A stretch of DNA of 64,000 nucleotides from an uncultured Candidatus Saccharibacteria bacterium (GTDB taxonomy: Bacteria > Patescibacteriota > Saccharimonadia > UBA4664 > CAYXHD01): positions 4,804 to 68,803 of the forward strand of contig CAZPDI010000001.1 of the NCBI GenBank assembly GCA_964585425.1, read 5' to 3'. Shown piece after piece: positions 3,035-60,308 of the stretch. The stretch's first letter is position 1. Every line of letters begins with the position of its first letter. The position numbers and the translations under genes are program-made. The notes beneath the pieces are model-generated. The model did no database searches, was not told the origin of the DNA, and saw only the letters and a list, made by a program, of their open reading frames with translations.

Positions 3035-3136
3035 ATGCTTATTGTAGCAATTTGGCGACTGTTATGCGACAGTTCAGGGGAACATTTATACGAAAAATCC
3101 TTTGGGATGATCCTTGTTCAAAAAAACACTTTTTTG

Positions 3137-3191
3137 CTTATTGCAACTTTGTGGCATTAAGGGGGTCTTATCGCAACTAATTCGCAATAAG
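3137..3191. promoter_or_regulatory. Pair of 25-bp palindromic operator-like boxes (Fur/Zur-family-like)
   Basis: CTTATTGCAACTTTGTGGCATTAAG followed by CTTATCGCAACTAATTCGCAATAAG. Near-identical boxes occur at 60255-60308 next to the Fur-family gene. Confidence 0.5.
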
Positions 3192-9935: not shown

Positions 9936-9977
9936 ATCACACATGTTTGAGCGTCTCTGACGCTCAGATAGAAACCC

Positions 9978-10011
9978 GACAAAGCCAACCTACTACCCCG
10001 AAAGAGGTCCC
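9978..10011. repeat. 5' box of cassette 1 (GACAAAGCCAAC..CCGAAAGAGGTCCCG)
   Basis: Repeated at 10404-10437 before cassette 2. Its reverse complement is found after each stop codon. Confidence 0.6.
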
Positions 10012-10269
10012 GTGACCAAAATCACGAACCGCAGCATCGCTCCTGCTGGCAGCATCTCCCAGATCGCTCAGCTCCACCAGGACGGAGAGATCGACCGCGA
10101 CCAGACCACTCAGGTGATCGAAGTGGTTGCGGAACATGCCGCAGAGGCGCCAAACACCTGTCCGCGCTGTCAGCGCGCCAACTGCCCAGTGACGAGGGGC
10201 GGCAACTGCCAGTTGCCAGACATGAAGGTGGTGGATCACCTGGTTCGTCAGCTGCAGACCTCCAACTGA
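10012..10269 (+). CDS. High-GC small zinc-ribbon-like protein
   Basis: GTG start 3 nt after AAAGAGG. CPRC-x4-C-x7-C cysteine arrangement. GC3 nearly 100%. Confidence 0.5.
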   Translation: MTKITNRSIAPAGSISQIAQLHQDGEIDRDQTTQVIEVVAEHAAEAPNTCPRCQRANCPVTRGGNCQLPDMKVVDHLVRQLQTSN

Positions 10270-10270
10270 T

Positions 10271-10320
10271 CTCGAGTCGGTCCTATGGGATCGAGGGGCG
10301 ACGAGGCTTGGCTTTGTCAC
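10271..10320. repeat. 3' box of cassette 1 (hairpin GGTCCtatGGGATC plus GGCTTGGCTTTGTCAC)
   Basis: The 11-bp core TTGGCTTTGTC is the reverse complement of GACAAAGCCAA in the 5' box. The extended region is an imperfect inverse of the 5' box. Confidence 0.55.
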
Positions 10321-10335
10321 CCCCTTATAAAATAG

Positions 10336-10364
10336 TTGACTTTACATGATTATTAAAGTATAGT
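10336..10364 (+). promoter_or_regulatory. Predicted sigma70 promoter for cassette 2
   Basis: TTGACT, 17-nt spacer, TATAGT, in an AT-rich spacer. Confidence 0.5.
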
Positions 10365-10403
10365 TATTGTCATGCTTGCATACGAAGTATGCGCGCACCT
10401 TAC

Positions 10404-10437
10404 GACAAAGCCAACAACTACACCGAAAGGGGTCCCG
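10404..10437. repeat. 5' box of cassette 2 (GACAAAGCCAAC..CCGAAAGGGGTCCCG)
   Basis: Copy of the 9978-10011 box, immediately before the ATG. Confidence 0.6.
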
Positions 10438-11169
10438 ATGGGATCTTCTGGAATTCTGGGGTTTCCCAAGGCTGCACACCGCGCCCCCACCATCAGCGAG
10501 GGGTACCAGGAGTACGTCGAGGAGATGACCGGCCTGGCCGTGTGCATGATCTGCGATAGCGGAACATGCCCCGGCGCCAGTGGACGCGCTTGCCCCTATG
10601 AACTCGACGTCTGCACCGTCTGCTGGCAGCTCGACTGCATTAGCGTCTTCGGTCACGACTGCCCTTCGGAGGAACGCTGCAACAACTGCGGTCACCTCCG
10701 GAACGAATTCGGCCATTACAGCAACTGCTCAATGCCCACAATGAAGCTGTGCGACGAGTGCGGGAGCGCAACCTGTCGCGTCAACCCGCCAAAGGAAATG
10801 CGAGAGGAGTACCCGTCGGACTACAATCCGTACTGGGATGACCACCACAGCATCTTCGATACGCTGGGCTGCCTCTTGGGTAGCCCGATCAGCGAGGAAG
10901 AACGGATCGCGGAAGAGATCGCATCGTGTTGGGCTCCGCGCACCGACCAGATGTCCCGAGATCGAGTACGGCAACAGATGCTGAGAACATGGATTGATCG
11001 TGATCTGGACAAAGCAGCTGAGGAAGCTCAGCAGCGCGCCGACCAGATGTCCCAGTCCATGCATCAGCTCACCGAGCTTGCGGACGACTACGACGACGGA
11101 CTGATCTCCGAGAACGTGGTTCTGATGCTCCTCCGGGCTGATCATCGCGGTGTACGGCTCTCCGGGTGA
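10438..11169 (+). CDS. High-GC cysteine-rich (multi-CxxC) protein with an acidic helical C-terminal half
   Basis: Start chosen at ATG 10438 right after the conserved 5' box. The longer 10372 start lies inside the AT-rich promoter. About 18 Cys in the first ~110 aa, in CxxC pairs. GC3 very high. Confidence 0.5.
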   Translation: MGSSGILGFPKAAHRAPTISEGYQEYVEEMTGLAVCMICDSGTCPGASGRACPYELDVCTVCWQLDCISVFGHDCPSEERCNNCGHLRNEFGHYSNCSMPTMKLCDECGSATCRVNPPKEMREEYPSDYNPYWDDHHSIFDTLGCLLGSPISEEERIAEEIASCWAPRTDQMSRDRVRQQMLRTWIDRDLDKAAEEAQQRADQMSQSMHQLTELADDYDDGLISENVVLMLLRADHRGVRLSG

Positions 11170-11209
11170 CCTTTGAGGGTCGGTGAGCGTCAAGGCTTGG
11201 CTTTGTCAC
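11168..11209. repeat. 3' box of cassette 2 (hairpin GACCtttgagGGTC plus GGCTTGGCTTTGTCAC)
   Basis: Same 16-nt core as 10305-10320, inverse of the 5' box. Confidence 0.55.
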
Positions 11210-11275
11210 TCACCTAAGTGTATATACACGATAAATACATTTAGGTGAGTATTATTAAGATAAACACAACTTCTA

Positions 11276-11304
11276 TTGACAAATAGGGTTTAGTTTGCTA
11301 TACT
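11276..11304 (+). promoter_or_regulatory. Predicted sigma70 promoter for cassette 3
   Basis: TTGACA, 17-nt spacer, TATACT. Confidence 0.5.
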
Positions 11305-11365
11305 TATGCGCAATCTGGTGGAACACCCATCCGATAGAACACAGACCACAACCCAAGGAAAGCCC

Positions 11366-12103
11366 ATGTCTCAGCTCGTCATCGTCCAGGGCCCCAAGCC
11401 CCGCACGTCCGCGGTGTCCGACAAGGATGCCCACAACCTCCGCCTCCAGGCGGACAAGGTGCTGGCCAGGCACCGCGGTGATCTCCCCCAGGAGATCGTC
11501 ACGCAGCTGACCAGCCCGATGCCCGGCATCGTGGGCATGGGACTGCACGACGCGGCCTCCTGGATCAAGCAGCGCACCGCCAACCTCAAGCTGCAGTACG
11601 TGCAGCAGCACCCCGACTGCGAGGCGGCCATGGCCCTCAAGACCCGAGTCGACAACGTCCTCAACGGCGAGTTCGGCGACAAGGTCAAAAAGAGCCTCGA
11701 CATGCGTGGTCAGCGCATCCTCGAGCTGGACCTGTACCAGATCTTGAGCACCGACCAGCTGAAGAGCTTCGCCCACTTCGTCAAGAAGGCCGAGGCAGTC
11801 GAGGGTCGCTTGCAGACCGAGAAGGCACGCAAGGCGGTGCCGGCCCAATCGCTCCAGATGCTGTTCCCGTCCAAGGAGAAGCGCGAGCGCAAGCCGAAGA
11901 AGGTCAAGCCGGCCTACGCCGGTCTCCCCGCACCGTCCACCGGGATCGTCACCGACTGGAAGAGCGACGTCGGCAGCGTCGGTGCCCCGAACCCCCAGGG
12001 TCCGGCGCCGGCACGCGGCGTCACCCTCCGCAAGTCCGACAAGGCTCGCGCCAAGGGAGTGAAGGGTGGTGGCGTCAAGACCCGTCCGGGGCGACGCAAC
12101 TGA
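11366..12103 (+). CDS. High-GC hypothetical protein with a lysine/arginine-rich C-terminal tail
   Basis: AAGGAAAG RBS. GC3 about 95% in this frame. The antisense ORF 11273..12130 is rejected as a GC artefact. C-terminal tail reads KEKRERKPKKVK...KARAKGVKGGGVKTRPGRRN. Confidence 0.5.
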   Translation: MSQLVIVQGPKPRTSAVSDKDAHNLRLQADKVLARHRGDLPQEIVTQLTSPMPGIVGMGLHDAASWIKQRTANLKLQYVQQHPDCEAAMALKTRVDNVLNGEFGDKVKKSLDMRGQRILELDLYQILSTDQLKSFAHFVKKAEAVEGRLQTEKARKAVPAQSLQMLFPSKEKRERKPKKVKPAYAGLPAPSTGIVTDWKSDVGSVGAPNPQGPAPARGVTLRKSDKARAKGVKGGGVKTRPGRRN

Positions 12104-12119
12104 CCAGTTGATCTGCGTT

Positions 12120-12154
12120 CCCCGAGTCATGACATCGTCGTCATGGCTCGGGGG
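12120..12154. terminator. Hairpin between convergent cassette 3 and uvrA
   Basis: CCCCGAGTCATGA ... TCATGGCTCGGGG inverted repeat. Confidence 0.35.
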
Positions 12155-40040: not shown

Positions 40041-40415
40041 ATGAATGCACCTGCCCGTCCCATGCCCGACATCACCGATGTGGAGCTGACCAAGAAGATC
40101 ATCGATGAACGTGTGAAGCACCACAACCTGCGCCATGAAGATGGTGAAGCGATCTGGATGGTAGTCACGGCCATCGGTCATGCCATCAAGATCGGTGATC
40201 CTCAGTACAGCCCGATGATCGACCGCAACGTCACGGGGCTGCGCAACGAGGCGAGGCCAGGCGAAGTTCCGGTCATCTTGCTGTCCGACCTGAACCGCAT
40301 CTTCTGTGACGACACGTTGATACGCGAGCTGCAGCGGGTGTTCCCGAGCATCGTCAATGATGCGGCGCGCGTTGCCTGCTGGAAGTTCCGCAACTGCATG
40401 TACGGATGCGACTGA
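40041..40415 (+). CDS. High-GC hypothetical protein (124 aa), module 1 gene A
   Basis: TAAGGAT RBS. GC3 high. No family recognised. Confidence 0.45.
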   Translation: MNAPARPMPDITDVELTKKIIDERVKHHNLRHEDGEAIWMVVTAIGHAIKIGDPQYSPMIDRNVTGLRNEARPGEVPVILLSDLNRIFCDDTLIRELQRVFPSIVNDAARVACWKFRNCMYGCD

Positions 40416-40417
40416 TC

Positions 40418-40627
40418 ATGCGCCTTCGGATCCCCTGGCGCAAGCAAACCGTGCCGCCGCCACCCGCGACTGTCGCGATGAAGGCTGCGCCCCTGGTGCC
40501 GCCACCTCATCGCCGGATGACGGCCGAAGAACGCGCTGCGTGCTGCCAAGATCAGAGGAAGATCAAGCTGCGTGCTGCCAAGCGTTGTCGGCGCAAGGCC
40601 CGAAAGCGCCGACTGCGCAACAAGTAA
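40418..40627 (+). CDS. Pro-rich/basic small protein, paralog 1 (alternative start 40406)
   Basis: GACTGATCATG junction with the upstream gene is conserved in paralog 42234..42467. Differences between the paralogs are often synonymous in this frame. Confidence 0.5.
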   Translation: MRLRIPWRKQTVPPPPATVAMKAAPLVPPPHRRMTAEERAACCQDQRKIKLRAAKRCRRKARKRRLRNK

Positions 40628-40645
40628 CCCCCGTGAGGCGGATCG

Positions 40646-40680
40646 CCGAAAGGTCCCTCTTGCGGGGGATCTTTCGTTAT
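40646..40680 (+). terminator. Family hairpin GAAAGGTCCC-tcttgcg-GGGGATCTTTC plus GTTAT
   Basis: 9-bp stem including G-U pairs, with a U-rich tail. Confidence 0.5.
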
Positions 40681-40687
40681 GGTGATA

Positions 40688-40716
40688 TTGATTTATACCT
40701 GTAAATGTGATTAAAT
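40688..40716 (+). promoter_or_regulatory. Predicted promoter of unit 2
   Basis: TTGATT, 17-nt spacer, TTAAAT. AAAGGAGAG RBS follows. Confidence 0.35.
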
Positions 40717-40750
40717 TTCCCTATTCCGTTTCGAGTCCAAAGGAGAGACC

Positions 40751-40984
40751 ATGACGGACGCACATGCCACGGCCGTCTCCACGGTCTATTTTTGGCTCGA
40801 GTACGAGTTGGGTATCGATAATCCTGATCACGTTGAACTGACCATGATTATCGAGAATGGCTGGCTGCGCTATCGGTGCCCGGCCCACGACATCACCCCG
40901 CTTGAAATCGCCCGCCTCGAAGCTGCCTGCCGGCACCACGCCCATTCTCTTGAAGTGCACCTGAACCTGGAGGTTCAATCATGA
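40751..40984 (+). CDS. High-GC small hypothetical protein (77 aa)
   Basis: AAGGAGAG RBS. ATGA overlap with the next gene. Confidence 0.4.
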   Translation: MTDAHATAVSTVYFWLEYELGIDNPDHVELTMIIENGWLRYRCPAHDITPLEIARLEAACRHHAHSLEVHLNLEVQS

Positions 40985-41733
40985 TTGTCCACAAGCACGA
41001 CATCGATACCGCAGCTCGTCTGGCCGCCAAAGAGCGGTTCATGAACGAGTCATGGCTGGATGATCGCAAGGTGCGATCATGGTTCGCTTGGCTCGGTATC
41101 CGTCCTGACGGTCATCAAGCATTGCGCATCTTGCGCGCTGTGCATGCCACGGCTGCCACCGTGCGTGAGTACAAGATCCACCATCGCCACACGCGCTTCG
41201 GTCGAACGATGCGCCTGCAGCGCCGGCTCCCACCGTGGCCCGCCAAGTACGCGGATACCCCGGTCATCAATGCCGCGCAGATGCTGCTGGTGACTCAGCG
41301 CACGGACTACATCCACCTCACGGAGCTGACGCGACCAATTACGGGTACCAGTTATCGGCACGGCGACAATCGACGCGTCGATATGGAAACGTGCAAGATG
41401 TTCCTGGAGAACGTGCAGAGCAAGTTCATGCGCGAAGCCGTTTGGTCAGATGAGTTGGTATGTATCGAGAGCTTTGCGCGGCTCGGCCTGACGCCCGATG
41501 AGCTGCTGGTGGCCGAGATGGCTCTGATCCGTCTGATGAGTAGGTATCGGCACGAAAAGGGGCTTACCTGGTATCTGATGCCGACCTATGGCAGCCGGAG
41601 CCGCCGCTTGCACACCCTCACCATGGGTGATTTCTTGAACATCACCCGATTTCTCCAACCCAACTATGGCGACACCGACATGGAGTTTCTCATGACGCTG
41701 GCCGATCGTCTGCGTTCGCGACTTGCGACCTGA
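40981..41733 (+). CDS. High-GC hypothetical protein (250 aa)
   Basis: GC3 high. Translationally coupled to the preceding ORF. No family recognised. Confidence 0.45.
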   Translation: MIVHKHDIDTAARLAAKERFMNESWLDDRKVRSWFAWLGIRPDGHQALRILRAVHATAATVREYKIHHRHTRFGRTMRLQRRLPPWPAKYADTPVINAAQMLLVTQRTDYIHLTELTRPITGTSYRHGDNRRVDMETCKMFLENVQSKFMREAVWSDELVCIESFARLGLTPDELLVAEMALIRLMSRYRHEKGLTWYLMPTYGSRSRRLHTLTMGDFLNITRFLQPNYGDTDMEFLMTLADRLRSRLAT

Positions 41734-41764
41734 TCTCGACACATACCCTCGCGGGGGCTTTTCT

Positions 41765-41798
41765 ACGGAAAGGTCCCTGCGGGGGATCTTTCGTTTAT
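41765..41798 (+). terminator. Family hairpin ACGGAAAGGTCCC-TGCGG-GGGATCTTTCG plus TTTAT
   Basis: Near-identical copy at 42492-42525. Confidence 0.55.
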
Positions 41799-41801
41799 AG
41801 C

Positions 41802-41830
41802 TTGCAATATCAATACTTTAAATGTATAAT
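41802..41830 (+). promoter_or_regulatory. Predicted sigma70 promoter of module 2
   Basis: TTGCAA, 17-nt spacer, TATAAT. AAGGAG RBS at 41849. Confidence 0.5.
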
Positions 41831-41859
41831 TTGTAAATCCGTACGACCAAGGAGTACCC

Positions 41860-42231
41860 TTGACCGAAGCCAATACCCTACCCAAGGCCGATGCCAGCGT
41901 CAAGCTGTCCGACGACATCATCGCAAGCTGCTACGAGGGCTGCGATCCCCGTGAGTCCGATCGAGCTCGCGGCTGCATCGCCGCCCTCAAGGACCTGCTA
42001 CGGCTCGCCGAGAAGACGCCGAACGACGCGCGCTACCAGGAGATCCGGGAGTTCGACGCCGACACCCTGACCGTTGGCCAGTTCATCACCCTGATGTACC
42101 TGCCGGCGATGTCGCCGAATCAGCCCCGCCAGCTGATGCGCAACGTGCGTAGCAACTGGGGGCGACTCAACCAGCGAGTTCTCATCGAGCTGCGAGACAA
42201 GCTGGATGAGCGCTACGAGCCCCAGGACTGA
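41860..42231 (+). CDS. High-GC hypothetical protein (123 aa), module 2 gene A
   Basis: TTG start 6 nt after AAGGAG. GC3 high. Not similar to 40041..40415. Confidence 0.45.
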   Translation: MTEANTLPKADASVKLSDDIIASCYEGCDPRESDRARGCIAALKDLLRLAEKTPNDARYQEIREFDADTLTVGQFITLMYLPAMSPNQPRQLMRNVRSNWGRLNQRVLIELRDKLDERYEPQD

Positions 42232-42233
42232 TC

Positions 42234-42467
42234 ATGGGCATCTGGAACTCTCGGCGCAAGAAGACGACACCACCGCCACCTCCTCCTGCACCTCCTCCGC
42301 CGCCCGCGGCTGTCGCGATGAAGACTGCACCACTGGCGCCGCCACCGCGTCGCCGAATGACGGCCGAAGAACGCGCCGCTCTCAAGCTGCCCAAAGTGAA
42401 GGCCCGGCAGCGCCTGGCCAAGAACCGACGCGCCAAGGTCAGGAAGCGCAAGCACAAGAAGTCCTGA
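42234..42467 (+). CDS. Pro-rich/basic small protein, paralog 2
   Basis: PPPPPPAPPPPPAAVAMKTAPLAPPPRRRMTAEERAA plus a K/R-rich tail. About 85% nucleotide identity to the 40418 paralog in the central part. Confidence 0.5.
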   Translation: MGIWNSRRKKTTPPPPPPAPPPPPAAVAMKTAPLAPPPRRRMTAEERAALKLPKVKARQRLAKNRRAKVRKRKHKKS

Positions 42468-42491
42468 TCGCGCCCCTGTGGGGACTTTTCT

Positions 42492-42525
42492 ACGGAAAGG
42501 TCCCTGCGGGGGATCTTTCGTTTTT
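42492..42525 (+). terminator. Family hairpin plus T5
   Basis: ACGGAAAGGTCCCTGCGGGGGATCTTTCGTTTTT. Confidence 0.55.
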
Positions 42526-42603
42526 AAATGAGAAAGACCCAGGATTTCTCCTAGGTCTAGGGGCCAGGGATTCGACTACCCTGCACCCCCATCCACAACC
42601 TGT

Positions 42604-43035
42604 TCACGCCTGCATATCAGGCGGCAAGGTGAAGGCGTCAGGGTACGAGATGACCAGATCATTATCGTTCAACGGATAGATCGCGCCCCAGTCCGTAAGC
42701 ACGAACCGTTCGCAGAACGTCTGATCCACAGCACGAGCATACGCTGGTATATCACGCAGATCGTCTTTCGTCAGCTCTTGCCCCCAGTAAAAGGTCCCTT
42801 TGTCATGAGAGTTGTGAGTAACGACCTTGTCATCAGGACATATGAATGTGTAGATCTCTGTGAAATCAAAGCCGATAGCCCCTTGCTGGTGCTTAACCCC
42901 GAGAGGGTCACGGCCTGCCGTGACGATGGCATCAACTCGAGACAACACGCCAGTCGGGTATATGTAGCGAGCCACCAACAACTTGGTGGCGACCACGTCG
43001 ATGTGCTTGGTCTGGCTTTCACCCTCGGTATCCAT
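42604..43035 (-). CDS. Hypothetical protein
   Basis: 143-aa ORF. No family recognised. Confidence 0.3.
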   Translation of the reverse strand: MDTEGESQTKHIDVVATKLLVARYIYPTGVLSRVDAIVTAGRDPLGVKHQQGAIGFDFTEIYTFICPDDKVVTHNSHDKGTFYWGQELTKDDLRDIPAYARAVDQTFCERFVLTDWGAIYPLNDNDLVISYPDAFTLPPDMQA

Positions 43036-43119: not shown

Positions 43120-43545
43120 CTAGAGCCCCTCTATAAATGTCTCGATAAAGCTATTCAGCTTGCTGCCAACTCGAGTAATGATCGAGTCTCGCTCCAAAAT
43201 CTTGGGCTTAGCTATTAATGTAGCGGCAATCTCATTGCGGCGTGGCTTGCGGCCAGTGAATAAGTAATCGTTAATCAGTTTTTGCAATTCATCGGTCATT
43301 AGACCTTCTTCAACACACATGGCCTCAAAAGCTTTAGCGCGCTCGACATTCCAGAACGAATCAAACTCACCAGCTACATCTTCAGGATTCTCGATCTTGG
43401 GTAGCGATCGGGCAATAAATTTCTCAATCAGCTCGCGCTTGCTACGCAGCACGGCATTGCCCATAAGCGTGTTATTAAGATTATCGATTATCTGAGCTTT
43501 TTTTGATCTTCCGACATAACCCCTCGCTTTGTGTCTATTGTACAC
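43120..43545 (-). CDS. Stand-alone fragment resembling the C-terminal helical domain of a type I restriction enzyme R subunit (possible remnant)
   Basis: 141 aa. The ..FW..E.AKAFE..C.EE.L....L.K.I..YLFT.RKP.R.EI...L..KPK.LER..I..R.. pattern is recalled from HsdR C-termini. No helicase or nuclease part and no hsdM/hsdS nearby. Confidence 0.3.
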   Translation of the reverse strand: MYNRHKARGYVGRSKKAQIIDNLNNTLMGNAVLRSKRELIEKFIARSLPKIENPEDVAGEFDSFWNVERAKAFEAMCVEEGLMTDELQKLINDYLFTGRKPRRNEIAATLIAKPKILERDSIITRVGSKLNSFIETFIEGL

Positions 43546-44393: not shown

Positions 44394-44422
44394 TTGCTTT
44401 TTTATAAGTTTTATGCTAGTAT
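44394..44422 (+). promoter_or_regulatory. Predicted sigma70 promoter
   Basis: TTGCTT, 17-nt spacer, TAGTAT. AAAGGAAA RBS before ATG 44458. Confidence 0.4.
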
Positions 44423-44457
44423 ATACGCATCTTGGCCGTCTAGCAAAAGGAAACATC

Positions 44458-44868
44458 ATGCCAAGCGCACAGACCATCCTCCCTCTGACCGCCGAACAGG
44501 TGGCCATGCCCGTGACCGCTGCCATCCTCACCACGGAGGACATCATCGGCGACCACGGGAGGTACCCGAAGGACATCGCTCACAGCTTGTCCACCATCTG
44601 CGAGTTCCTGCAGGAGGTCAAGCGGGAGGTCAAGCAGAGTCCAAGGGCCTACCTCGGCTGGTTGGAGTTGGCGGATGAGAACGGGGTGCGCTTCAGCGAG
44701 CGCGATTACCCCAGCATCACCGCAGGGTTCCTCCTGGCCGTGATGGAATCCAGCGCCGCCTGGGGCACCGTGATGAAGCACGGTCCGGAGGACTACTGCT
44801 TCGAGCAGCTGAACATGCTGAGGACGGCGGTCTACGCCCTCCTCTTCAAGCGGTCGCTGGCTGGCTGA
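44458..44868 (+). CDS. High-GC hypothetical protein (136 aa)
   Basis: Start at the first ATG after the RBS. GC3 high. Confidence 0.5.
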   Translation: MPSAQTILPLTAEQVAMPVTAAILTTEDIIGDHGRYPKDIAHSLSTICEFLQEVKREVKQSPRAYLGWLELADENGVRFSERDYPSITAGFLLAVMESSAAWGTVMKHGPEDYCFEQLNMLRTAVYALLFKRSLAG

Positions 44869-53646: not shown

Positions 53647-54582
53647 TTATTTAGTAAAGTAGGTGGTCTTTACCAGGGTATAGACTTTTGATCCCAGCGG
53701 GATAAGCAACAATACGATGCCGAGCCCAAGCAAGTAATAGGTTTGGCTGTTAAAGGTGGCAATGAAGGCGTTGTAGACATTTTCTACGACGATACGCAAG
53801 TTCTGCTGGTTGACCTGAGCCAATACTGGCGGCTTAAACAATGGACCGACCAAGAGTGCCAGCAAGCCTGCGGTTGAGACAGCGATACCCTGCCCGACCA
53901 GTAACTTGTTAGTTGGATAGCGTTTTTTCACATGTGGCCAGACCAGCAAGAAGAGCGCCAACAGGAAGGCTAATGGTGCTACAAAGGTCAGCACTACACC
54001 AGCCTGATAGAATGATGGGATCTTATCGATATTTTTAAAGATAGTAATAGTGTCAGGTACTTGATCAACCTTAACTACCGCTTCATCCTTATTAGCCAAG
54101 GTCAGCAACTTGGTAATGGTGGTTTTGATACCGCTTAGATCATAGGTGATTGGCTCTGGTCGCTTAGAGGTAAACAAGATCTGCACTTTACCCACTACGG
54201 CATTCAGAGCATTCTGCGCTTGCTGAGTATTAAGCAATCCAGCAATAAAGTTGGTGGCTGGCTCGGCCACTACGGCACGAGCGGCTGGCTGGCTTTGCAA
54301 AGCGGTATCGACAATTTCGCCAGCTAGCGCATTACGGCTGCTTTGCGAGAGTAGTGCTTGACTGGTTACCGTAGTAAACTCCTTGGTATCAAACATCGTA
54401 CGGTTCACCCAAATAGCTGAGTTCGCCACTACTAAAAGCAGCGCAGCCAAGATGGTACTTAGAATAAAATTACGCTTCTTATGTGATTTCTTAGTTGGCG
54501 CAGCAACCGTCTGGCTGGCAACGGACTGAGTTTTTTTCTTTACAGGTGTTTTTGTTGTCTTCTTAGGTGCGGTCCTTGCCAT
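53647..54582 (-). CDS. Membrane hypothetical protein
   Basis: N-terminal K/T-rich region, then two or three TM segments. Confidence 0.4.
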   Translation of the reverse strand: MARTAPKKTTKTPVKKKTQSVASQTVAAPTKKSHKKRNFILSTILAALLLVVANSAIWVNRTMFDTKEFTTVTSQALLSQSSRNALAGEIVDTALQSQPAARAVVAEPATNFIAGLLNTQQAQNALNAVVGKVQILFTSKRPEPITYDLSGIKTTITKLLTLANKDEAVVKVDQVPDTITIFKNIDKIPSFYQAGVVLTFVAPLAFLLALFLLVWPHVKKRYPTNKLLVGQGIAVSTAGLLALLVGPLFKPPVLAQVNQQNLRIVVENVYNAFIATFNSQTYYLLGLGIVLLLIPLGSKVYTLVKTTYFTK

Positions 54583-54641
54583 AACAAATCCTTTTCTTGC
54601 TTTATAGCGCTATTATACATCTATTTTCATAAATTGCGAGC

Positions 54642-54673
54642 TGGCGCCGAGCGAGTCTTCCCGCCCGGCGCCA
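54642..54673 (-). terminator. Hairpin downstream of pyrC, followed by GCTCGCAATTTATGAA
   Basis: TGGCGCCG ... CGGCGCCA inverted repeat. The TTCATAAATTGCGAGC motif recurs at 55855-55870. Confidence 0.45.
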
Positions 54674-54688
54674 ATCTCATGCTGCTGG

Positions 54689-55771
54689 CTACCCTGTCCA
54701 GCGCTGACGCTGCAGATCCTCTACCTGCCAACGCAACGTTTGTCCCGCCCGGAATGGCACCACCCCGCCGATCTCTTCAGGCACAGCCCAGGGGATCCTC
54801 GACAACAACACATAATTGTCGTCTTGTGGGGGCTCGACGCCGTAGAACTTGCAACCAGCAATGGAGACAAACTGCTCCAGCCTCTCCGGCCAGTCCTCCA
54901 GACCACTGTCCTCGAACAGTTCCGCCAGCACCGGCAGAGCAACTGGTCCGGAATACACGCCGTTGTTAGGCTTTGCCTTCAGCTTGTCCTCGATTCGATG
55001 AGGCGCCGAGTCGCTACCGAAGAAGATCTTGGGCGGATCACCCGGCTTGACACTGAGCATCGCAGCCAAGATGGCTTGACGATCTTCCTCGGTCTTGGCT
55101 CGCGGCAAACAGGCATGATGCGGCTGATCGATGACACCATCGTGCTCAACGTCATTAATGGTCAAGCATGGATGATGAGCCGTGATGGTGGCAGCGACGT
55201 TGGCCGGCAGCTCCATGATGAGGTTGATGGCATCGGCAGAAGAGACGTGCTCGAAGACGATTCGCAGACCCGGGAATGCCTCATGCACCTCCATGAACAG
55301 CTCGAGGAACATCTGCTCAGCATGAGCGAGATCGTCGGTTGAGACTTCGCCGTGCACGTTAAGCACGACATCAAGCTCCTGCATCACTTCAAATACTGGC
55401 CACCCGTCGTGGATATCCCGCAAACCAAAACCCGAATGAGTCGTGGTGTTGTACGGATAATACTTGACCGAACAGAATCCGTTGCGACGTTCGTACATCA
55501 GACGGATGATCGCTTCATCAGTGTCTGGCGTGAGGTACAAGGTCGGCCACAAGTTCACCATGTTCAGGCCTTTCAGCCCTGCCTGCACCTCTTGCAGATA
55601 GTGGAACGCATGCATAGCGTCACTTACTGGCACCGGGTTGAGGTTTGGCATGAGCAAGGCGTAATGGAGATGACCAATGCTGGGACGAACAACATCTTTC
55701 AGCAGACGTCCTTGACGAACATGAACGTGCCAATCGCTCGGACGACGCATCTTGAGTGCCAAGTAGGGCAT
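54689..55771 (-). CDS. pyrC: Dihydroorotase, type II (E. coli-like homodimeric form)
   Basis: LKMRRPSDWHVHVRQG, LMPNLNPVPV, KYYPYNTTTHSGFG, VHGEV, RIVFEHVSS, AATITAHH, FFGSDSAPH, VVPFRAGQTLRWQV all align with E. coli PyrC. High GC. Confidence 0.85.
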   Translation of the reverse strand: MPYLALKMRRPSDWHVHVRQGRLLKDVVRPSIGHLHYALLMPNLNPVPVSDAMHAFHYLQEVQAGLKGLNMVNLWPTLYLTPDTDEAIIRLMYERRNGFCSVKYYPYNTTTHSGFGLRDIHDGWPVFEVMQELDVVLNVHGEVSTDDLAHAEQMFLELFMEVHEAFPGLRIVFEHVSSADAINLIMELPANVAATITAHHPCLTINDVEHDGVIDQPHHACLPRAKTEEDRQAILAAMLSVKPGDPPKIFFGSDSAPHRIEDKLKAKPNNGVYSGPVALPVLAELFEDSGLEDWPERLEQFVSIAGCKFYGVEPPQDDNYVLLSRIPWAVPEEIGGVVPFRAGQTLRWQVEDLQRQRWTG

Positions 55772-55807
55772 GGTGAGTCCTTTCGGGACGTTGTGAGTGA
55801 ACGAACA

Positions 55808-55827
55808 AAGGTGTGCCTAAGCACACC
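55808..55827. promoter_or_regulatory. Perfect palindrome AGGTGTGC-CTAA-GCACACCT in the pyrC leader
   Basis: 8-bp arms. Lies between the pyrC start and the pyrE terminator. Confidence 0.3.
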
Positions 55828-55871
55828 TCCATAACCATTACTATACACTATTATTCATAAATTGCGAGCGT

Positions 55872-55901
55872 CTGGGCCAGGGGAACTCTCCCCCGGCCCA
55901 G
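55872..55901 (-). terminator. Hairpin downstream of pyrE, preceded on the plus strand by TTCATAAATTGCGAGC
   Basis: CTGGGCCAGGGG ... CCCCGGCCCAG inverted repeat. Confidence 0.45.
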
Positions 55902-55923
55902 CGCGAACCGTTGAATACGGGGC

Positions 55924-56583
55924 TCAGGCTGCGAGTAACTGGACCCAGCCACCCTCGTACTGCGGGTTGACCTCATCGCGGTAGTGGGCACCGTGACCCA
56001 GCGCACCATCGACAACAATGGGCTTGCCAGCTTCACAGAGCGGACAAGCTTCGGCGTCGTAGGACGCGAAGTCCACGTGCGTCAGCTGCTCCAACCGGGG
56101 AACTCCGATGGCGTCAGCCTCCACACCGCCTCGGTTGCAGACGGCACTGATGCCGATCACCTCACCACCACAGGCTTCGATGGCCGCGCAGGTGCCCTGA
56201 ACCGAACTGCCAGTGGTCAGCAGATCCTCGATCACGAGAACGCGTTTGTTCTGCAGGTGCTGCGGGAAGCTCAGGCGATCGACCACGAAGTTGTTGCCCT
56301 CCTTGTCGGCCCACAGGCCAGGCACACGAAGACCCTTCTTGTGCAGTAGCCAGTTCGAGGCAGTGCTGGTGAGCGCCACGCCACCGGTTGCCGGTGATGC
56401 GACAACATCGAAACCGCCGTCGAATGGTCTGAGGAGATCCGAGACGATCTGGCTGAGCATCACTGGATCAGCGAAGATCGGGTCCATGCAGATGTAGCCC
56501 TCACCGTGTCCACCCTTCTTGTACACGAAGTGGTTGTCGAGAAAGACGGCTCCGACCTTCTGGAGGTACTCGAGAATGTCCAT
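55924..56583 (-). CDS. pyrE: Orotate phosphoribosyltransferase
   Basis: Start taken at MDILEY (TAGGAACG RBS). PRPP-binding motif VLVIEDLLTTGSS. High GC. Confidence 0.7.
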   Translation of the reverse strand: MDILEYLQKVGAVFLDNHFVYKKGGHGEGYICMDPIFADPVMLSQIVSDLLRPFDGGFDVVASPATGGVALTSTASNWLLHKKGLRVPGLWADKEGNNFVVDRLSFPQHLQNKRVLVIEDLLTTGSSVQGTCAAIEACGGEVIGISAVCNRGGVEADAIGVPRLEQLTHVDFASYDAEACPLCEAGKPIVVDGALGHGAHYRDEVNPQYEGGWVQLLAA

Positions 56584-56666
56584 GTGCGTTCCTAACGTGA
56601 GACGAATGCGCCAACTGGTCACATCCGAATTATTATCCTATTCATAAAAGTTATTTACAAGCATAA

Positions 56667-56734
56667 GTGTGTCGCCGGACGGGTGGGCAAAAAGTTTACA
56701 GTCCGAAGACCTTCTTCCTCCTCGCCCACCCGTC
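56667..56734 (-). terminator. Long-loop hairpin downstream of pyrF
   Basis: GGACGGGTGGGC ... GCCCACCCGTCC 12-bp arms. Confidence 0.35.
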
Positions 56735-56742
56735 CGAGCATG

Positions 56743-57675
56743 TCAGGCCGCCAGGCGAACTCGCTCGATGGTCTCGTGCATGTTGGAGGCCTCAGCTTCC
56801 GACGCCTCAGCCGGAGCCAGACCCTCGTACTGCTGGTTGTCGTGAGCATGGGTGATGCCGCTCGAGGAGTTGATGGCGATGCCAGCCTGCTGGCTGTTGT
56901 GTCCGTTCTGGTAGGCGGCTGCAGCGTCACCGCCCTGCTTGTTTCCTACCCCAGGGATCAGGATCGGAACCTGCTCGCCAACACAACGACGAACGTTGGC
57001 AAGGTCGTCGATGGACTCGGGACTTGCGCCGGCCACCACACCGACGTTGCCTCGCTTGTTCCAGCCCTCCAGGCTGGCGACGTTCTGTGCGACTCGCTCG
57101 TACAGGAAGCCCTCCATAGTCACGCCCATGAGGGTTGACGAGCAGGTATCAAGCTTCTGGAACTCCTCGGCGCCAGGGTTGGATGTACGAGTCAGTACGA
57201 AGACCCCCTTGTCGCCACGGTCCAGCCACGGGGCCATGGCCTGTGCACCCATGTAGTTGTGGACGGTGACTGCATCAGCTCCGCAGACGTCGTAGGCGAA
57301 CGAGGCGTAGGTGTCATTGGTCGCTCCGATGTCGCCGGCCTTGAGGTCAAGGATCTTGACGACATCTGGCGCGTGGGTACGCATGTGCTTGAAGAGCAAC
57401 TCCAATGCCTGGATGCCTTCATGGCCATGCTTGAGGTAGAACCCCAAGTTGGGTTTCATCCAGCCGACTTTGCCGGCCAGGGCCTCGACGATCGGGAACA
57501 AGAAGGTGGTGAGCGTACCGCAGATGCTGGCCCGCTGGAAGCCCTCCGGGATGCGTGTGATCACCGGATCATCCTCGCGATAGGTGCTCTTGAGCGTTGG
57601 GTCGAGACCGGCGCAGACTGCACGGTGCTGCCCGGCGTTCAAGGCCACGAGCTCCGAAAAGCTGAGGTCGGACAT
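56743..57675 (-). CDS. pyrF: Orotidine-5'-phosphate decarboxylase, type 2 (long form)
   Basis: Start taken at MSDLSF after GGAGAGGAG. VCAGLDP and DLKAGDIGATN (type-2 D.K.GDIG.T motif). High GC. Confidence 0.7.
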   Translation of the reverse strand: MSDLSFSELVALNAGQHRAVCAGLDPTLKSTYREDDPVITRIPEGFQRASICGTLTTFLFPIVEALAGKVGWMKPNLGFYLKHGHEGIQALELLFKHMRTHAPDVVKILDLKAGDIGATNDTYASFAYDVCGADAVTVHNYMGAQAMAPWLDRGDKGVFVLTRTSNPGAEEFQKLDTCSSTLMGVTMEGFLYERVAQNVASLEGWNKRGNVGVVAGASPESIDDLANVRRCVGEQVPILIPGVGNKQGGDAAAAYQNGHNSQQAGIAINSSSGITHAHDNQQYEGLAPAEASEAEASNMHETIERVRLAA

Positions 57676-57778
57676 GTCAGACTCCTCTCCCATCTGACGA
57701 TGAGATAGATTCGTGCGACCGAATTAGCCACATCCATATTAGTATGGTTTCTGGGACGCTTAAGAGCAAGCGTAAGAG

Positions 57779-58597
57779 TTATTTACTGCGCAACCGTGCG
57801 ATGACAAAGCGAGCGAGGAAGTAAATGAGGAAGCTAAGGAATGTTACAAAAACACTTGGCTTAATAGTTCCGCTGGCTAAGCTCAGGAGTACACCCCCAG
57901 CTCCGGCAACGAAGGCAAAGCCAACGGAAAGACTAGCGACCATGGCGGGTCTGGCCGATAAACGCATAGCGGCAGCGGCTGGTGTAATGGCTAAACTTAA
58001 GACGAGTAGGGTGCCGACGATTTGGGCCGCGGCAGTTACGGTCAGCGCCAAGAGGATCAAGAACGCTATACCAAGCGCACGAACTGGCACGCCACGAGCA
58101 GCGGCGACCTGCGGGTCAATCGAAGCAAACTGTAATGGTCGATACATAATAATGAGGCCCACGATGACGAGCACACAAATTCCTATTAAGAATCCGAGTT
58201 GCGTGGCACTTACGCCATATACATTACCAAAGAGGATGTTGGTCGCCGCGGTGGCGAAGCCACGATAATAACTCAGGAACAACACGCCAAGCCCAAGCCC
58301 AAAGGCCAAGATGACGCCAATGGATGAATCACGTTCTTTTTCACGCACGCCAAGTAAACCGATTGATACGGCGACGATAAGTGCGCCAATAATTGAGCCA
58401 AGCGGCGCATTATTGAGGAACAATAGTCCGGCGGCCGCACCAGTAAAGGCCAGTTCGCTAATGCCATGCACCGCAAACGCCATGCTGCGACGAATCACAA
58501 AAGGGCCCACCAGACCACAAATCATGGCAATGATGGTTGCCGCCAATAAAGCGTGTTGCGCAAAGGGCTGACCTAAATAGAATAGGAAGTTATTCAT
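57779..58597 (-). CDS. Metal (Zn/Mn) ABC transporter permease (ABC-3 / ZnuB-TroCD family)
   Basis: Start taken at MNNFLF, which overlaps the ATPase stop. About 8 TM helices. Confidence 0.7.
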   Translation of the reverse strand: MNNFLFYLGQPFAQHALLAATIIAMICGLVGPFVIRRSMAFAVHGISELAFTGAAAGLLFLNNAPLGSIIGALIVAVSIGLLGVREKERDSSIGVILAFGLGLGVLFLSYYRGFATAATNILFGNVYGVSATQLGFLIGICVLVIVGLIIMYRPLQFASIDPQVAAARGVPVRALGIAFLILLALTVTAAAQIVGTLLVLSLAITPAAAAMRLSARPAMVASLSVGFAFVAGAGGVLLSLASGTIKPSVFVTFLSFLIYFLARFVIARLRSK

Positions 58598-59330: not shown

Positions 59331-60244
59331 AATGCCCCTAGTATGGCACTAAGTTGTTGCATTTGCCAGGTCTGAAAGTTCTTAACCTTGGGAATCGTTT
59401 CGCTGACCCCTACTACCGCTACGCCGGCTTGCTGGGCAGTCTTTTGCAACTGCTCCGTGACATCATTTACCGCCTGATTGTTATAGAGGAGTACTTTTAC
59501 CTGCCCCGACTTTAATACTGCTTCGAATGCTTGTATTTGCTGTGGGGTTGGCTCACTGCCGTTTTCGACCGATTGCGAAAAGCCAGTCGGAGTTTTGTCG
59601 GTCAAACCAAGATCCTCGATCAAATAGCCGGCCACTCGTTCGGTATAGGCCACGCCGCCATTCACCTGAGTAATTTTGCTGGTTAATTTTTGCATATCGG
59701 CAATAAAGTTTTGAGTGTTTGCCTTATAGCTGATCTCGTGCTCTGGGTCAATTGCAATCAGGTCATTCTGGATGGCTAAGGCCACCTCCTGGATGCGCGG
59801 CAGATCATACCAGAGATGCGGGTTATCATCCTGGTTGGATTTAAGAACTTCGCTGACATTGAGTATTGTTTTATCATTTTGTGGAGCCGCCTCTAAGAGC
59901 TTGTCCATAAACTCGTCGTAGCCCAGACCATTAACTATGATGAGCTGGGCAGATCCTAGCTGCGAGGCAGTTTTAGCGTCGGACTCAAATAAGTGCGGAT
60001 CAGCTTCGGGGTCGCTTAATATAGAAGTAACTTCGACATGCTCGCCACCTACCTGGGCCGCAATATCACCCCAAACGTTGGTGCTCGCAACGATTTGAAC
60101 TTTATTACTATCGTGCGCAACTTGATTCTTTGACTGCAAATATACCACCCCCCATATAAAGAATAGGGCCGATATAAGCATGGCGGCGCCGAGAGCAAAT
60201 GTTCGTTTTTTCGATATATGTGACATGTCTTTAAAATAAAACAC
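59327..60244 (-). CDS. Metal ABC transporter substrate-binding protein (TroA/ZnuA cluster-9 family)
   Basis: N-terminal TM/signal region. TroA-like fold length. ATGA overlap with the ATPase. Confidence 0.7.
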   Translation of the reverse strand: MFYFKDMSHISKKRTFALGAAMLISALFFIWGVVYLQSKNQVAHDSNKVQIVASTNVWGDIAAQVGGEHVEVTSILSDPEADPHLFESDAKTASQLGSAQLIIVNGLGYDEFMDKLLEAAPQNDKTILNVSEVLKSNQDDNPHLWYDLPRIQEVALAIQNDLIAIDPEHEISYKANTQNFIADMQKLTSKITQVNGGVAYTERVAGYLIEDLGLTDKTPTGFSQSVENGSEPTPQQIQAFEAVLKSGQVKVLLYNNQAVNDVTEQLQKTAQQAGVAVVGVSETIPKVKNFQTWQMQQLSAILGAL

Positions 60245-60254
60245 CTTTTTGCTT

Positions 60255-60308
60255 ATTGCAAATTTGTCGCATTAGTGATATCTTATTGCAACAAAGTCGC
60301 ATTAACGA
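60255..60308. promoter_or_regulatory. Pair of palindromic operator-like boxes in the divergent intergenic region
   Basis: CTTATTGCAAATTTGTCGCATTAG and CTTATTGCAACAAAGTCGCATTAA. Consensus CTTATTGCAAnnnnGTnGCATTA is shared with 3137-3191. Confidence 0.5.

What the first reader, a model, noticed from the sequence alone, without database searches (positions are those of the whole stretch)
54626..57760. Horizontally acquired, individually packaged pyrC-pyrE-pyrF genes of high GC
Three consecutive minus-strand genes encode dihydroorotase, OPRT and OMP decarboxylase. The dihydroorotase aligns motif-by-motif with E. coli type II PyrC, for example DWHVHVRQG, KYYP.NTTT, FEHVSS and VPFRAGQTLRW. The decarboxylase is the long type 2 form. 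Both are clearly GC-richer than the surrounding znu and MFS genes.

Each gene is monocistronic. An AT-rich leader precedes each, TTCATAAATTGCGAGC recurs at 54626 and 55855 and in diverged form at 56641, and each gene has its own hairpin downstream. No pyrB or pyrD lies between them. The type II PyrC points to a donor outside the usual Gram-positive type I lineage.

Assembling three same-pathway genes from separately wrapped units mirrors the cassette logic elsewhere in the window. It could give a reduced-genome organism the last steps of UMP synthesis from scavenged orotate or dihydroorotate.
Basis: partly seen in the sequence, partly recalled or inferred. Interest (0 to 1): 0.7.

Follow-up and report, generated by a model that had tools for sequence, protein, structure and literature searches.

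The report
Modular, swap-prone GC-rich pyrimidine gene locus
Three GC-rich genes for the last steps of UMP synthesis sit as separate promoter-to-hairpin units at a site conserved in at least seven related uncultured genomes, where the coding parts have repeatedly been replaced by distant homologues or lost while the control sequences between them stayed.

Summary
pyrF (56743-57675), pyrE (55924-56583) and pyrC (54689-55771) are intact minus-strand genes. Their GC3 is 0.78, 0.73 and 0.66, against 0.50 +/- 0.06 for 55 other window genes. Each is followed by a very stable hairpin, and an exact 16-mer flanks pyrC.

This is not a recent import into this genome. The same znuB-pyrF-pyrE-pyrC-membrane gene layout occurs in seven related metagenomic loci, and there too the pyr ORFs alone are GC-rich (GC3 0.69-0.89). 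The nearest named homologues are Patescibacteria, not an exotic donor.

The new result is that flanking proteins are 75-98% identical between these genomes, while PyrF, PyrE and PyrC are only 24-71% identical. They fall into reassorting allele classes. The pyrE slot even holds two different OPRT subfamilies. The intergenic promoter, leader and terminator sequences are kept. Five of eight loci have lost one gene. Three lack pyrC and carry a single hybrid copy of the 16-mer.

Best reading: gene-by-gene xenologous displacement and loss in situ. The exchange mechanism, the GC-rich source and the organism's name remain unresolved.

The parts
57779..58597 (-). znuB, the upstream backbone flank (ABC-3 permease)
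   Evidence: Pfam ABC-3, 3.6e-43. It is 75-91% identical across the 8 syntenic loci, with GC3 0.52.
57676..57778 (-). znuB-to-pyrF linker: promoter-like TTGCTC-17-CATACT (TTGCAA-17-GATAAT in relatives) and a 5' leader with two hairpins, the second ending at the Shine-Dalgarno sequence
   Evidence: Alignment of 8 loci and RNAalifold (A3). One pair shows CG to UA double changes in 3 sequences. Sequences. Promoter function is inferred.
56743..57675 (-). pyrF, type 2 OMP decarboxylase, allele class A
   Evidence: TIGR02127, 153 bits, above the cutoff. PDB type 2 OMPDC hits. GC3 0.78. It is 67-69% identical to L074 and L078 but 36-40% identical to L002, L086 and L084.
56676..56736 (-). pyrF downstream hairpin: 13-bp GC stem extended through a long inner stem-loop
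   Evidence: Folds at -46.3 kcal/mol, z = -7.1. The GGGTGGGTGGGG...CCCCACCCACC stem is conserved after both PyrF classes.
56632..56660 (-). pyrE promoter TTGTAA-17-GATAAT, containing TTTATGAA (56641-56648)
   Evidence: Promoter scan hit, 9 of 12. The motif is conserved in 7 loci.
56584..56631 (-). pyrE 5' leader. The first hairpin is shared by both pyrE allele classes. The Shine-Dalgarno-proximal ~25 nt differ by class.
   Evidence: Sequence comparison. The fold is weak on energy alone (z = -1.1).
55924..56583 (-). pyrE, orotate phosphoribosyltransferase of the pyrE_Therm-like subfamily (class 1)
   Evidence: TIGR01367, 89 bits, below the cutoff. The PRPP-binding motif VLVIEDLLTTGSS is present in the translation. 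GC3 0.73. L074, L079, L084 and L086 carry a TIGR00336-type pyrE in this slot.
55868..55904 (-). pyrE downstream hairpin
   Evidence: Folds at -39.8 kcal/mol, z = -5.6. It is kept with GC to CG and GU changes in 6 loci (A2).
55854..55869 (.). Core direct repeat, copy 1 (GCTCGCAATTTATGAA on the minus strand). It also covers the -35 region of the pyrC promoter.
   Evidence: Exact match. Two copies occur wherever pyrC is present and one where it is absent.
55772..55853 (-). pyrC promoter -10 (TGnTATAGT, 55840-55847) and leader with a terminator-like hairpin (55807-55830) followed by TTTGTTCGTT
   Evidence: A2 alignment and RNAalifold: 12 pairs, one compensatory GC to AU. Fold z = -2.5. No Rfam family matches. 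An attenuator role is inferred.
54689..55771 (-). pyrC, type II dihydroorotase
   Evidence: TIGR00856, 274 bits against a cutoff of 293. PDB matches. The HxH, Lys103, His140, His175, Asp254 and His258 positions are invariant in 8 alleles (A1). GC3 0.66.
54641..54674 (-). pyrC downstream hairpin
   Evidence: Folds at -29.7 kcal/mol, z = -3.8. It is conserved, with compensatory differences, in L002, L074 and L079.
54626..54641 (.). Core direct repeat, copy 2
54583..54625 (-). Promoter (-10 TATAAT, 54612-54617) and leader of the downstream membrane-protein gene
   Evidence: Conserved in 7 loci. In L078 and L086 it is joined directly to the pyrE hairpin through one core copy.
53647..54582 (-). Downstream flank: lineage-specific membrane protein with no Pfam or NCBIfam family
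   Evidence: There are two allele classes (59-62% identity between them, 70-85% within), but GC3 is mostly backbone-like (0.42-0.52; 0.63 in L080).

Best explanation
The region is a conserved, modular pyrF-pyrE-pyrC locus of a clade of uncultured bacteria.

Each gene appears to be its own transcription unit. A promoter of the type TTGCGA or TCGCAA, 16-17 nt, then GATAAT or TATAAT, carries a shared TTTATGAA element. A short structured 5' leader follows, then the Shine-Dalgarno sequence and the ORF, then a very stable GC-rich hairpin.

Over evolutionary time the Shine-Dalgarno-plus-ORF modules, but not the linkers, have been replaced one at a time by distant homologues. This is xenologous displacement in situ. 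The modules have also reassorted between lineages and have been eroded one at a time.

pyrC is a 1.2 kb module bracketed by a direct repeat. It has been lost in three relatives, which carry one hybrid repeat copy at the junction.

All alleles carry the codon usage of a GC-rich genome, so they belong compositionally to the GC-rich accessory gene pool that also peppers the rest of these genomes.

Functionally, the intact set in this window should convert orotate to UMP through PyrE and PyrF. PyrC would interconvert carbamoyl-aspartate and dihydroorotate.

Shown here: gene identities, composition, synteny, allele classes, phylogenetic separation, linker conservation and the junction structure. 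Inferred: promoter and terminator function, homologous recombination in the linkers as the exchange mechanism, and the metabolic role.
For: **Synteny.** Seven further independent loci from different samples share the layout, plus duplicate contigs and one 2-kb fragment.

**Composition.** The pyr ORFs have GC3 0.66-0.89 in all 8 loci. ZnuC, ZnuB, MarR, MFS and the other backbone flanks have 0.41-0.58, apart from the membrane gene of L080 at 0.63. At third positions C is 0.30-0.58 and A is 0.02-0.12, which is generic high-GC codon usage.

**Divergence.** ZnuB and ZnuC are 73-92% identical and BipA 90-98%. PyrF is 33-88%, PyrE 24-67% and PyrC 36-62%. Window versus L074 gives flank dN of 0.02-0.07, against 0.28 for PyrF, 0.85 for PyrE and 0.58 for PyrC.

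**No intrinsic fast clock.** L002 and L086 share a PyrF class at 88% identity (dN 0.07), equal to their flanks at 85-90% (dN about 0.09-0.11).

**Reassortment.** All combinations of PyrF classes A and B with PyrE classes 1 and 2 occur. Pyr ORF distances are uncorrelated with backbone distance (r = 0.03, -0.05, 0.00). MarR and DUF2779 do correlate (r = 0.49 and 0.45, p = 0.02 and 0.01).

**Different origins.**
- PyrE class 1 scores best on TIGR01367 and class 2 on TIGR00336.
- PyrF classes A and B lie on opposite sides of a 236-sequence NJ tree.
- L002 PyrF is 58% identical to a 'Ca. Parcubacteria' PyrF but 38% identical to the window's.

**Function retained.** Catalytic residues are invariant in all 8 PyrC alleles.

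**Linkers.** Terminator hairpins, promoters and leaders are recognisably conserved next to ORFs of different classes.

**Empty-site junction.** L078 and L086 read pyrE hairpin, one core copy, membrane-gene promoter. L084 reads pyrE hairpin, core copy, MarR promoter. The core motif count is 2 where pyrC is present and 1 where it is absent, and the motif occurs nowhere else in 92 loci.

**Erosion.** L002 has an internal pyrE deletion. L080 and L081 have a pyrF-pyrE junction deletion.
Against: - The donors are not identified. No database protein outside the syntenic loci exceeds 47% identity for the window's PyrC, PyrE or PyrF. 'Replacement from outside' therefore rests on tree topology and subfamily assignment, not on a found source.
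- The six PyrC alleles in the NJ tree cluster together on long branches. That would also fit one old acquisition.
- Why every allele in every genome is still GC-rich is unexplained. Old alleles should have ameliorated.
- Homologous recombination in the linkers requires donors with the same linkers. The closest outside PyrF (L082) has unrelated flanks.
- The 100 nt upstream of pyrF do not track the backbone (r = 0.10).
- Trees are NJ on small samples.
- There are no transcript data.
Confidence: 0.6

Rival explanations
1. The three genes were recently and separately imported into this particular genome from a GC-rich donor outside its lineage. The 16-mer marks the packaging of imported cassettes.
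For: The genes have strong GC3 outlier status. Other GC-rich orphan islets lie in the same window. A Logan contig ends at both edges of the island.
Against: The same locus, order and linkers occur in seven related genomes whose backbone is saturated at synonymous sites. Each protein's nearest relative is at that locus. The nearest named homologues are Patescibacteria. There are no actinobacterial, plasmid or phage matches.
Confidence: 0.07
2. One ancient acquisition into the clade's ancestor, followed by vertical descent. The pyr ORFs then evolved unusually fast under a local GC-biased process such as biased gene conversion, while the linkers were held by purifying selection. On this view no replacement occurred.
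For: All alleles are GC-rich in all genomes. PyrC alleles form one long-branch cluster. The best database hits are the syntenic relatives. The linkers are shared by all.
Against: - The pyrE slot holds two OPRT subfamilies.
- PyrF classes are separated by over 200 outside sequences, and class B is closer to outsiders (58%) than to class A (38%).
- ORF distances are uncorrelated with the backbone. The backbone-closest pair, the window and L074, has the most different PyrE and PyrC.
- L002 and L086 show PyrF evolving at the flank rate.
- The membrane gene also has divergent allele classes, with backbone-like GC3 (0.42-0.52) in six of seven loci. Allele turnover alone therefore does not raise GC.
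Confidence: 0.15
3. A dedicated site-specific cassette system. The GCTCGCAATTTATGA core next to a hairpin would be a recombination site at which circular ORF modules are inserted and excised by an unlinked recombinase, in the manner of an integron.
For: The direct repeat flanks the pyrC module. The empty sites carry exactly one hybrid copy. A hairpin lies immediately 5' of the core. Modules are swapped ORF by ORF.
Against: - The Pfam-scanned window ORFs and the Pfam-annotated called genes of the fetched loci include no integrase or recombinase, and several ORFs have no family.
- The hairpins are perfect GC stems specific to their position, not to the ORF they follow.
- The core overlaps a promoter -35 and occurs only at two positions per locus.
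- The pyrF and pyrE slots use a different linker type.
- One deletion event between short repeats explains the three empty sites.
Confidence: 0.08

Closest known systems
Xenologous (non-orthologous) gene displacement in situ in mosaic operons (Omelchenko et al. 2003, Genome Biology; cited from memory, not read here)
   Same: Gene order and neighbours are conserved, while individual genes have a different phylogenetic affinity from their neighbours. Here these are the PyrE subfamily switch and the PyrF classes.
   Different: Here it recurs many times within a narrow clade and affects all three adjacent genes independently. It leaves promoter, leader and terminator sequences in place. Every allele keeps a GC-rich composition foreign to the backbone.
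Integron gene cassettes
   Same: Units are the size of one ORF, each followed by a hairpin-forming element. A short conserved core lies at the junctions. Presence or absence leaves a single hybrid site.
   Different: No integrase was seen. Each unit has its own promoter. The hairpins are perfect stems tied to the slot rather than to the ORF. There are only two core copies per locus. The array is three same-pathway genes in fixed order.
Enterobacterial pyr gene organisation (E. coli pyrC, pyrD, pyrE and pyrF as separate units; pyrC controlled through a 5' hairpin; from textbook knowledge)
   Same: A type II PyrC. Separate transcription units with leader hairpins placed directly after the -10 element.
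   Different: The genes are adjacent here. The pyrC leader hairpin looks like an intrinsic terminator rather than a hairpin masking the Shine-Dalgarno sequence. No Rfam pyr leader or PyrR site matches. Regulation is untested.
Hypervariable loci exchanged through conserved flanks, such as capsule or O-antigen loci (general knowledge)
   Same: Deeply divergent alleles at one chromosomal site, reassorted among related genomes whose flanks are conserved. Composition is atypical for the genome.
   Different: The cargo is housekeeping-type nucleotide biosynthesis enzymes, not surface structures. Exchange is per ORF with internal conserved linkers, not of the whole locus.

Membership tests
Type II (dimeric) dihydroorotase, TIGR00856 pyrC_dimer | Score at or above the curated equivalog cutoff (292.95 bits) | tested here: not met
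   274.1 bits, full-length match 6-350 to 2-340 of 341. It falls just below the cutoff. The relatives' alleles score 189-243 bits.
Type II (dimeric) dihydroorotase, TIGR00856 pyrC_dimer | About 345 aa with the metal ligands HxH, carboxylated Lys, two His and Asp in DSAPH, and full-length similarity to solved type II enzymes | tested here: met
   H15, H17, K103, H140, H175, D254 and H258 are invariant in 8 alleles. E. coli 1j79 matches at 8.6e-46 over residues 2-351.
OMP decarboxylase subfamily 2, TIGR02127 | Score above the curated cutoff (110.6 bits) | tested here: met
   152.8 bits. The best PDB matches are type 2 enzymes.
Orotate phosphoribosyltransferase, TIGR01367 pyrE_Therm | Score above the curated cutoff (150.25 bits) | tested here: not met
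   89.2 bits, full-length match. It is the best family by far. The PRPP motif is present. The best PDB hits are OPRTs, at only 2e-11. The OPRT assignment is probable, not proven.
Integron cassette array | Adjacent intI integrase; promoterless cassettes; attC sites with R'', L'', L' and R' boxes and extrahelical bases | tested here: not met
   The Pfam-scanned window ORFs and the Pfam-annotated called genes of the loci include no integrase. Each gene has a promoter-like element. The hairpins are perfect stems.
Classical genomic island (recent HGT) | Atypical composition | tested here: met
   GC3 z = 2.8 to 4.9.
Classical genomic island (recent HGT) | Absent from close relatives; tRNA or integrase at the border | tested here: not met
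   The locus is present at the same site in all 7 related loci. No tRNA or integrase is adjacent.
In situ xenologous gene displacement | Conserved neighbourhood with a gene whose phylogenetic affinity or subfamily differs from that of the same slot in relatives | tested here: met
   PyrE is TIGR01367-type in some loci and TIGR00336-type in others. PyrF classes A and B are separated by the whole tree. Pyr distances are uncorrelated with the backbone.
PyrR or known pyr leader RNA elements (Rfam) | Covariance-model match in the leaders | tested here: not met
   There is no such hit at E-values up to 5, and none at the gathering score.

The most novel reading that the evidence does not exclude
These reduced genomes may keep a fixed scaffold of native promoter, leader and terminator linkers. 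This scaffold would work as docking sites into which single ORFs from a GC-rich, clade-wide accessory gene pool are swapped, lost and regained. Short cores such as GCTCGCAATTTATGA would serve as the actual recombination points. That would be a cassette-exchange mechanism distinct from integrons, and it would explain both the pyr locus and the many GC-rich orphan islets.
Probability: 0.15. Interest if true: 0.85.

Novelty: new variant of a known kind. Interest (0 to 1): 0.6.

Why it matters
Organisms of this kind are thought to depend on partners for nucleotides. A pyrimidine end-pathway that is repeatedly lost, regained and replaced gene by gene shows which steps are under fluctuating selection. 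pyrE and pyrF are kept more often than pyrC.

The locus is also a clean natural example of ORF-precise displacement with native control sequences retained. The persistent GC-rich composition of every allele, shared with many orphan genes in the same genomes, points to an unidentified gene reservoir or a compositional process in these lineages. Population-resolved metagenomes could test this directly.

Tried and rejected
**Hypotheses rejected**
- Pyrimidine-sparing mRNA composition: C is enriched at third positions and A is depleted as much as T.
- Actinobacterial host as donor of the pyr genes: the 120 listed hits for PyrC and for the window's PyrF are all at 45% identity or less outside the syntenic loci, and the named ones are mostly Patescibacteria. 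One actinobacterial name appears (Solirubrobacteraceae, 42%).
- Intrinsic fast clock: the L002-L086 pair argues against it.
- Mosaic ORFs with internal breakpoints: sliding-window identity is roughly uniform along each ORF.
- Phage or plasmid reservoir: no phage match for two GC-rich orphans, and plasmid PyrF hits are at 38% or less. One IMG/VR hit at 38% lies in a 68% GC contig and is irrelevant.

**Searches that led nowhere**
- The genome-contig scan with ZnuB returned only Actinomycetota and did not name the organism.
- Three cluster look-ups gave no organism names.
- Literature searches found nothing on this locus or these samples.

**Comparison judged uninformative**
- Lower pS in pyr genes is probably a ceiling effect of biased codon usage, so it was not used.

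Full report
**What is there**

The window carries three consecutive minus-strand genes.
- pyrF, 56743-57675. The start is taken from the Logan gene call and from the Shine-Dalgarno position.
- pyrE, 55924-56583.
- pyrC, 54689-55771.

NCBIfam gives the following.
- pyrF_sub2, 153 bits, above its cutoff.
- pyrC_dimer, 274 bits, just under the cutoff of 293.
- pyrE_Therm, 89 bits, under the cutoff of 150.

PyrC aligns end to end with solved type II dihydroorotases, including the E. coli enzyme. PyrF aligns with type 2 decarboxylases. PyrE matches OPRTs only weakly.

GC3 is 0.78, 0.73 and 0.66. For 55 other window genes the mean is 0.499, the sd 0.057 and the maximum 0.62. That gives z = 4.9, 4.1 and 2.8.

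The exact 16-mer lies at 54626 and 55854. A diverged TTTATGAA-containing relative lies at 56641.

The three downstream hairpins fold at -46, -40 and -30 kcal/mol, with z = -7.1, -5.6 and -3.8.

**The locus is not private to this genome**

Exact-protein look-ups of the nearest homologues returned seven further independent loci from different samples: L002, L074, L078, L079, L080, L084 and L086. They also returned duplicates and the 2-kb fragment L077.

All have the layout znuA-znuC-znuB, then pyrF, pyrE and (where present) pyrC, then the same lineage-specific membrane-protein gene, MarR, MFS, DUF2779 and BipA.

In every one the pyr ORFs have GC3 0.66-0.89. The backbone flanks have 0.41-0.58, apart from the membrane gene of L080 at 0.63. 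The third-position pattern is C 0.30-0.58, G about 0.3, A 0.02-0.12 and T 0.07-0.24. This is ordinary high-GC codon usage, not U-sparing.

**ORFs diverge out of all proportion to their flanks**

| Protein | Identity range across loci |
|---|---|
| ZnuB, ZnuC | 73-92% |
| MarR, MFS, DUF2779 | 72-92% |
| BipA | 90-98% |
| PyrF | 33-88% |
| PyrE | 24-67% |
| PyrC | 36-62% |

The window and L074 are the closest pair by backbone (flank dN 0.02-0.07). They nevertheless differ by dN 0.28 in PyrF, 0.85 in PyrE and 0.58 in PyrC.

This is not a general fast clock. L002 and L086 share one PyrF class at 88% identity (dN 0.07), the same as their flanks.

The alleles fall into classes.
- PyrF class A: the window, L074 and L078, with L079 and L080 more distant.
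- PyrF class B: L002 and L086, with L084 more distant.
- PyrE class 1: the window, L078 and L080.
- PyrE class 2: L074, L086, L084 and L079.

All combinations of these classes occur.

Pyr ORF distances have no correlation with ZnuC+ZnuB distance (r = 0.03, -0.05, 0.00). MarR and DUF2779 do correlate (r = 0.49 and 0.45). Identity is roughly even along each ORF, so whole ORFs differ.

**The classes have different origins**

- PyrE class 1 scores best on TIGR01367 and class 2 on TIGR00336. The same slot therefore holds two OPRT subfamilies.
- In a 236-sequence NJ tree, PyrF classes A and B lie on opposite sides of the tree.
- L002's PyrF is 58% identical to a PyrF labelled 'Ca. Parcubacteria', which sits in a 57% GC contig with unrelated flanks. 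It is only 38% identical to the window's PyrF.
- The six PyrC alleles included in the NJ tree of the 120 best hits cluster together on long branches. For PyrC a single origin is not excluded.
- All eight PyrC alleles keep the catalytic residues.
- The nearest named homologues of all these proteins are Patescibacteria at 45% identity or less to the window's proteins. The window's PyrE has nothing above 47% among 1.8 billion cluster representatives.
- No actinobacterial, plasmid or phage source was found.

**The linkers persist**

The same elements are recognisable in all loci, next to ORFs of different classes.
- The pyrF terminator stem GGGTGGGTGGGG...CCCCACCCACC.
- The pyrE terminator.
- The promoters.
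- The first leader hairpins.
- The pyrC leader hairpin GGAGGTGTGC...GCACACCTTTGTTCGTT.

They show a few compensatory changes.

At nucleotide level the linkers are 43-82% identical. Backbone ORFs are 58-82% identical and swapped pyr ORFs 32-50%.

For pyrE the class-specific part begins about 25 nt upstream of the start codon, so it includes the Shine-Dalgarno sequence. It ends within about 20 nt of the stop codon.

Not every linker tracks the backbone. The 100 nt upstream of pyrF do not.

**The 16-mer marks a module boundary**

Where pyrC is present, GCTCGCAATTTATGA occurs twice and flanks it. Where pyrC is absent (L078, L086, L084/L085) it occurs once. It occurs nowhere else in the 92 fetched loci.

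The single-copy junctions are hybrids.
- L078 and L086: pyrE terminator hairpin, one core copy, membrane-gene promoter.
- L084: pyrE terminator hairpin, core copy, MarR promoter.

L080, the backbone outgroup, has pyrC. The three pyrC-less loci group together by ZnuA. The economical reading is therefore one or a few deletions between the repeats. Insertion at a core site is not excluded.

**The locus erodes**

- L002 has an internal pyrE deletion.
- L080 and L081 have a deletion that fuses the pyrF 3' end to a truncated pyrE.
- Three loci lack pyrC.
- Only the window, L074 and L079 keep all three genes intact.

**Interpretation**

The best-supported account is gene-by-gene xenologous displacement, reassortment and loss at a conserved modular locus. 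Native control sequences are retained, and recombination in the shared linkers is the likely route.

Three things are unresolved.
- The source of the GC-rich alleles.
- Why no allele has ameliorated.
- The organism's name.

On the organism, the ZnuB scan of species genomes returned only Actinomycetota at 63% identity or less. Three cluster look-ups gave no names.

The window's backbone encodes UvrABC, glycolysis and pentose-phosphate enzymes including a split transketolase, a LytR-CpsA-Psr protein and many orphans. Relatives carry heliorhodopsin and sortase. This fits a Saccharimonadia-like Patescibacterium, but that assignment is an inference.

**Context**

The same genomes carry many other GC-rich orphan ORFs (GC3 0.69-0.91). 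These differ from genome to genome and match no Pfam or PHROG family. The pyr ORFs share that composition.

The membrane-protein gene also has two allele classes, yet its GC3 is backbone-like (0.42-0.52) in six of seven loci. Allele turnover alone therefore does not raise GC.

Noticed in passing
window 9964-12130, 40041-42679, 44413-44868: Other GC-rich islets (GC3 0.71-0.87, z = 3.7-6.6) encode plus-strand orphan ORFs inside a minus-strand backbone. None matches a Pfam, NCBIfam or PHROG family. Relatives carry different GC-rich orphans at comparable sites.
   Followed up: partly
window 40457-40536 vs 42297-42376; 41753-41796 vs 42480-42523: Direct repeats of 80 bp (89% identical) and 44 bp (98% identical) lie downstream of two GC-rich orphan ORFs. 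They may form a repeated 3' element of that islet.
   Followed up: no
window 3123-3159 vs 60238-60274: A 37-bp repeat (92% identical) lies upstream of the FAD-oxidase gene and in the znuA/Fur-family divergent region. It also matches L002 near its znuA. It may be a Zur or Fur operator.
   Followed up: no
L001 = window 54612-58004: A Logan assembly contig (SRR13208893, 3,393 bp) matches the window exactly. It ends 14 nt beyond the downstream core repeat and inside znuB. This could reflect strain-level variation at the module edges in that sample.
   Followed up: no
window 55807-55830 (pyrC leader): A conserved 8-12 bp hairpin followed by TTTGTTCGTT begins a few bases after the predicted transcription start, which reads ATGGAGG. 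It looks like an intrinsic terminator or attenuator. No Rfam family matches.
   Followed up: partly
window 57779-58597 (znuB); L004: The closest ZnuB homologues among GTDB species genomes are all Actinomycetota, the best being a 68% GC Frankiales MAG contig at 63%. This suggests an old actinobacterial origin of the znu genes, which now have backbone GC.
   Followed up: partly
window 53647-54582 and relatives: The lineage-specific membrane protein downstream of pyrC has two allele classes (59-62% identity between them, 70-85% within). The classes do not follow the backbone, and GC3 is backbone-like in six of seven loci.
   Followed up: partly
L080 5991-10000; L074 5932-6462; L078 12819-13316: Relatives carry extra insertions at the locus edges. 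L080 has a 4 kb block (sortase, GT2, polysaccharide deacetylase) between znuB and pyrF. L074 and L078 each have a GC-rich minus-strand orphan between the membrane gene and marR.
   Followed up: no
window 43120-43545: A 141-aa ORF matches only the C-terminal domain of a type I restriction R subunit (EcoR124_C, 2e-18). It lies between two NYN-domain genes and next to the 40-42.7 kb GC-rich islet, and is probably a gene remnant.
   Followed up: no
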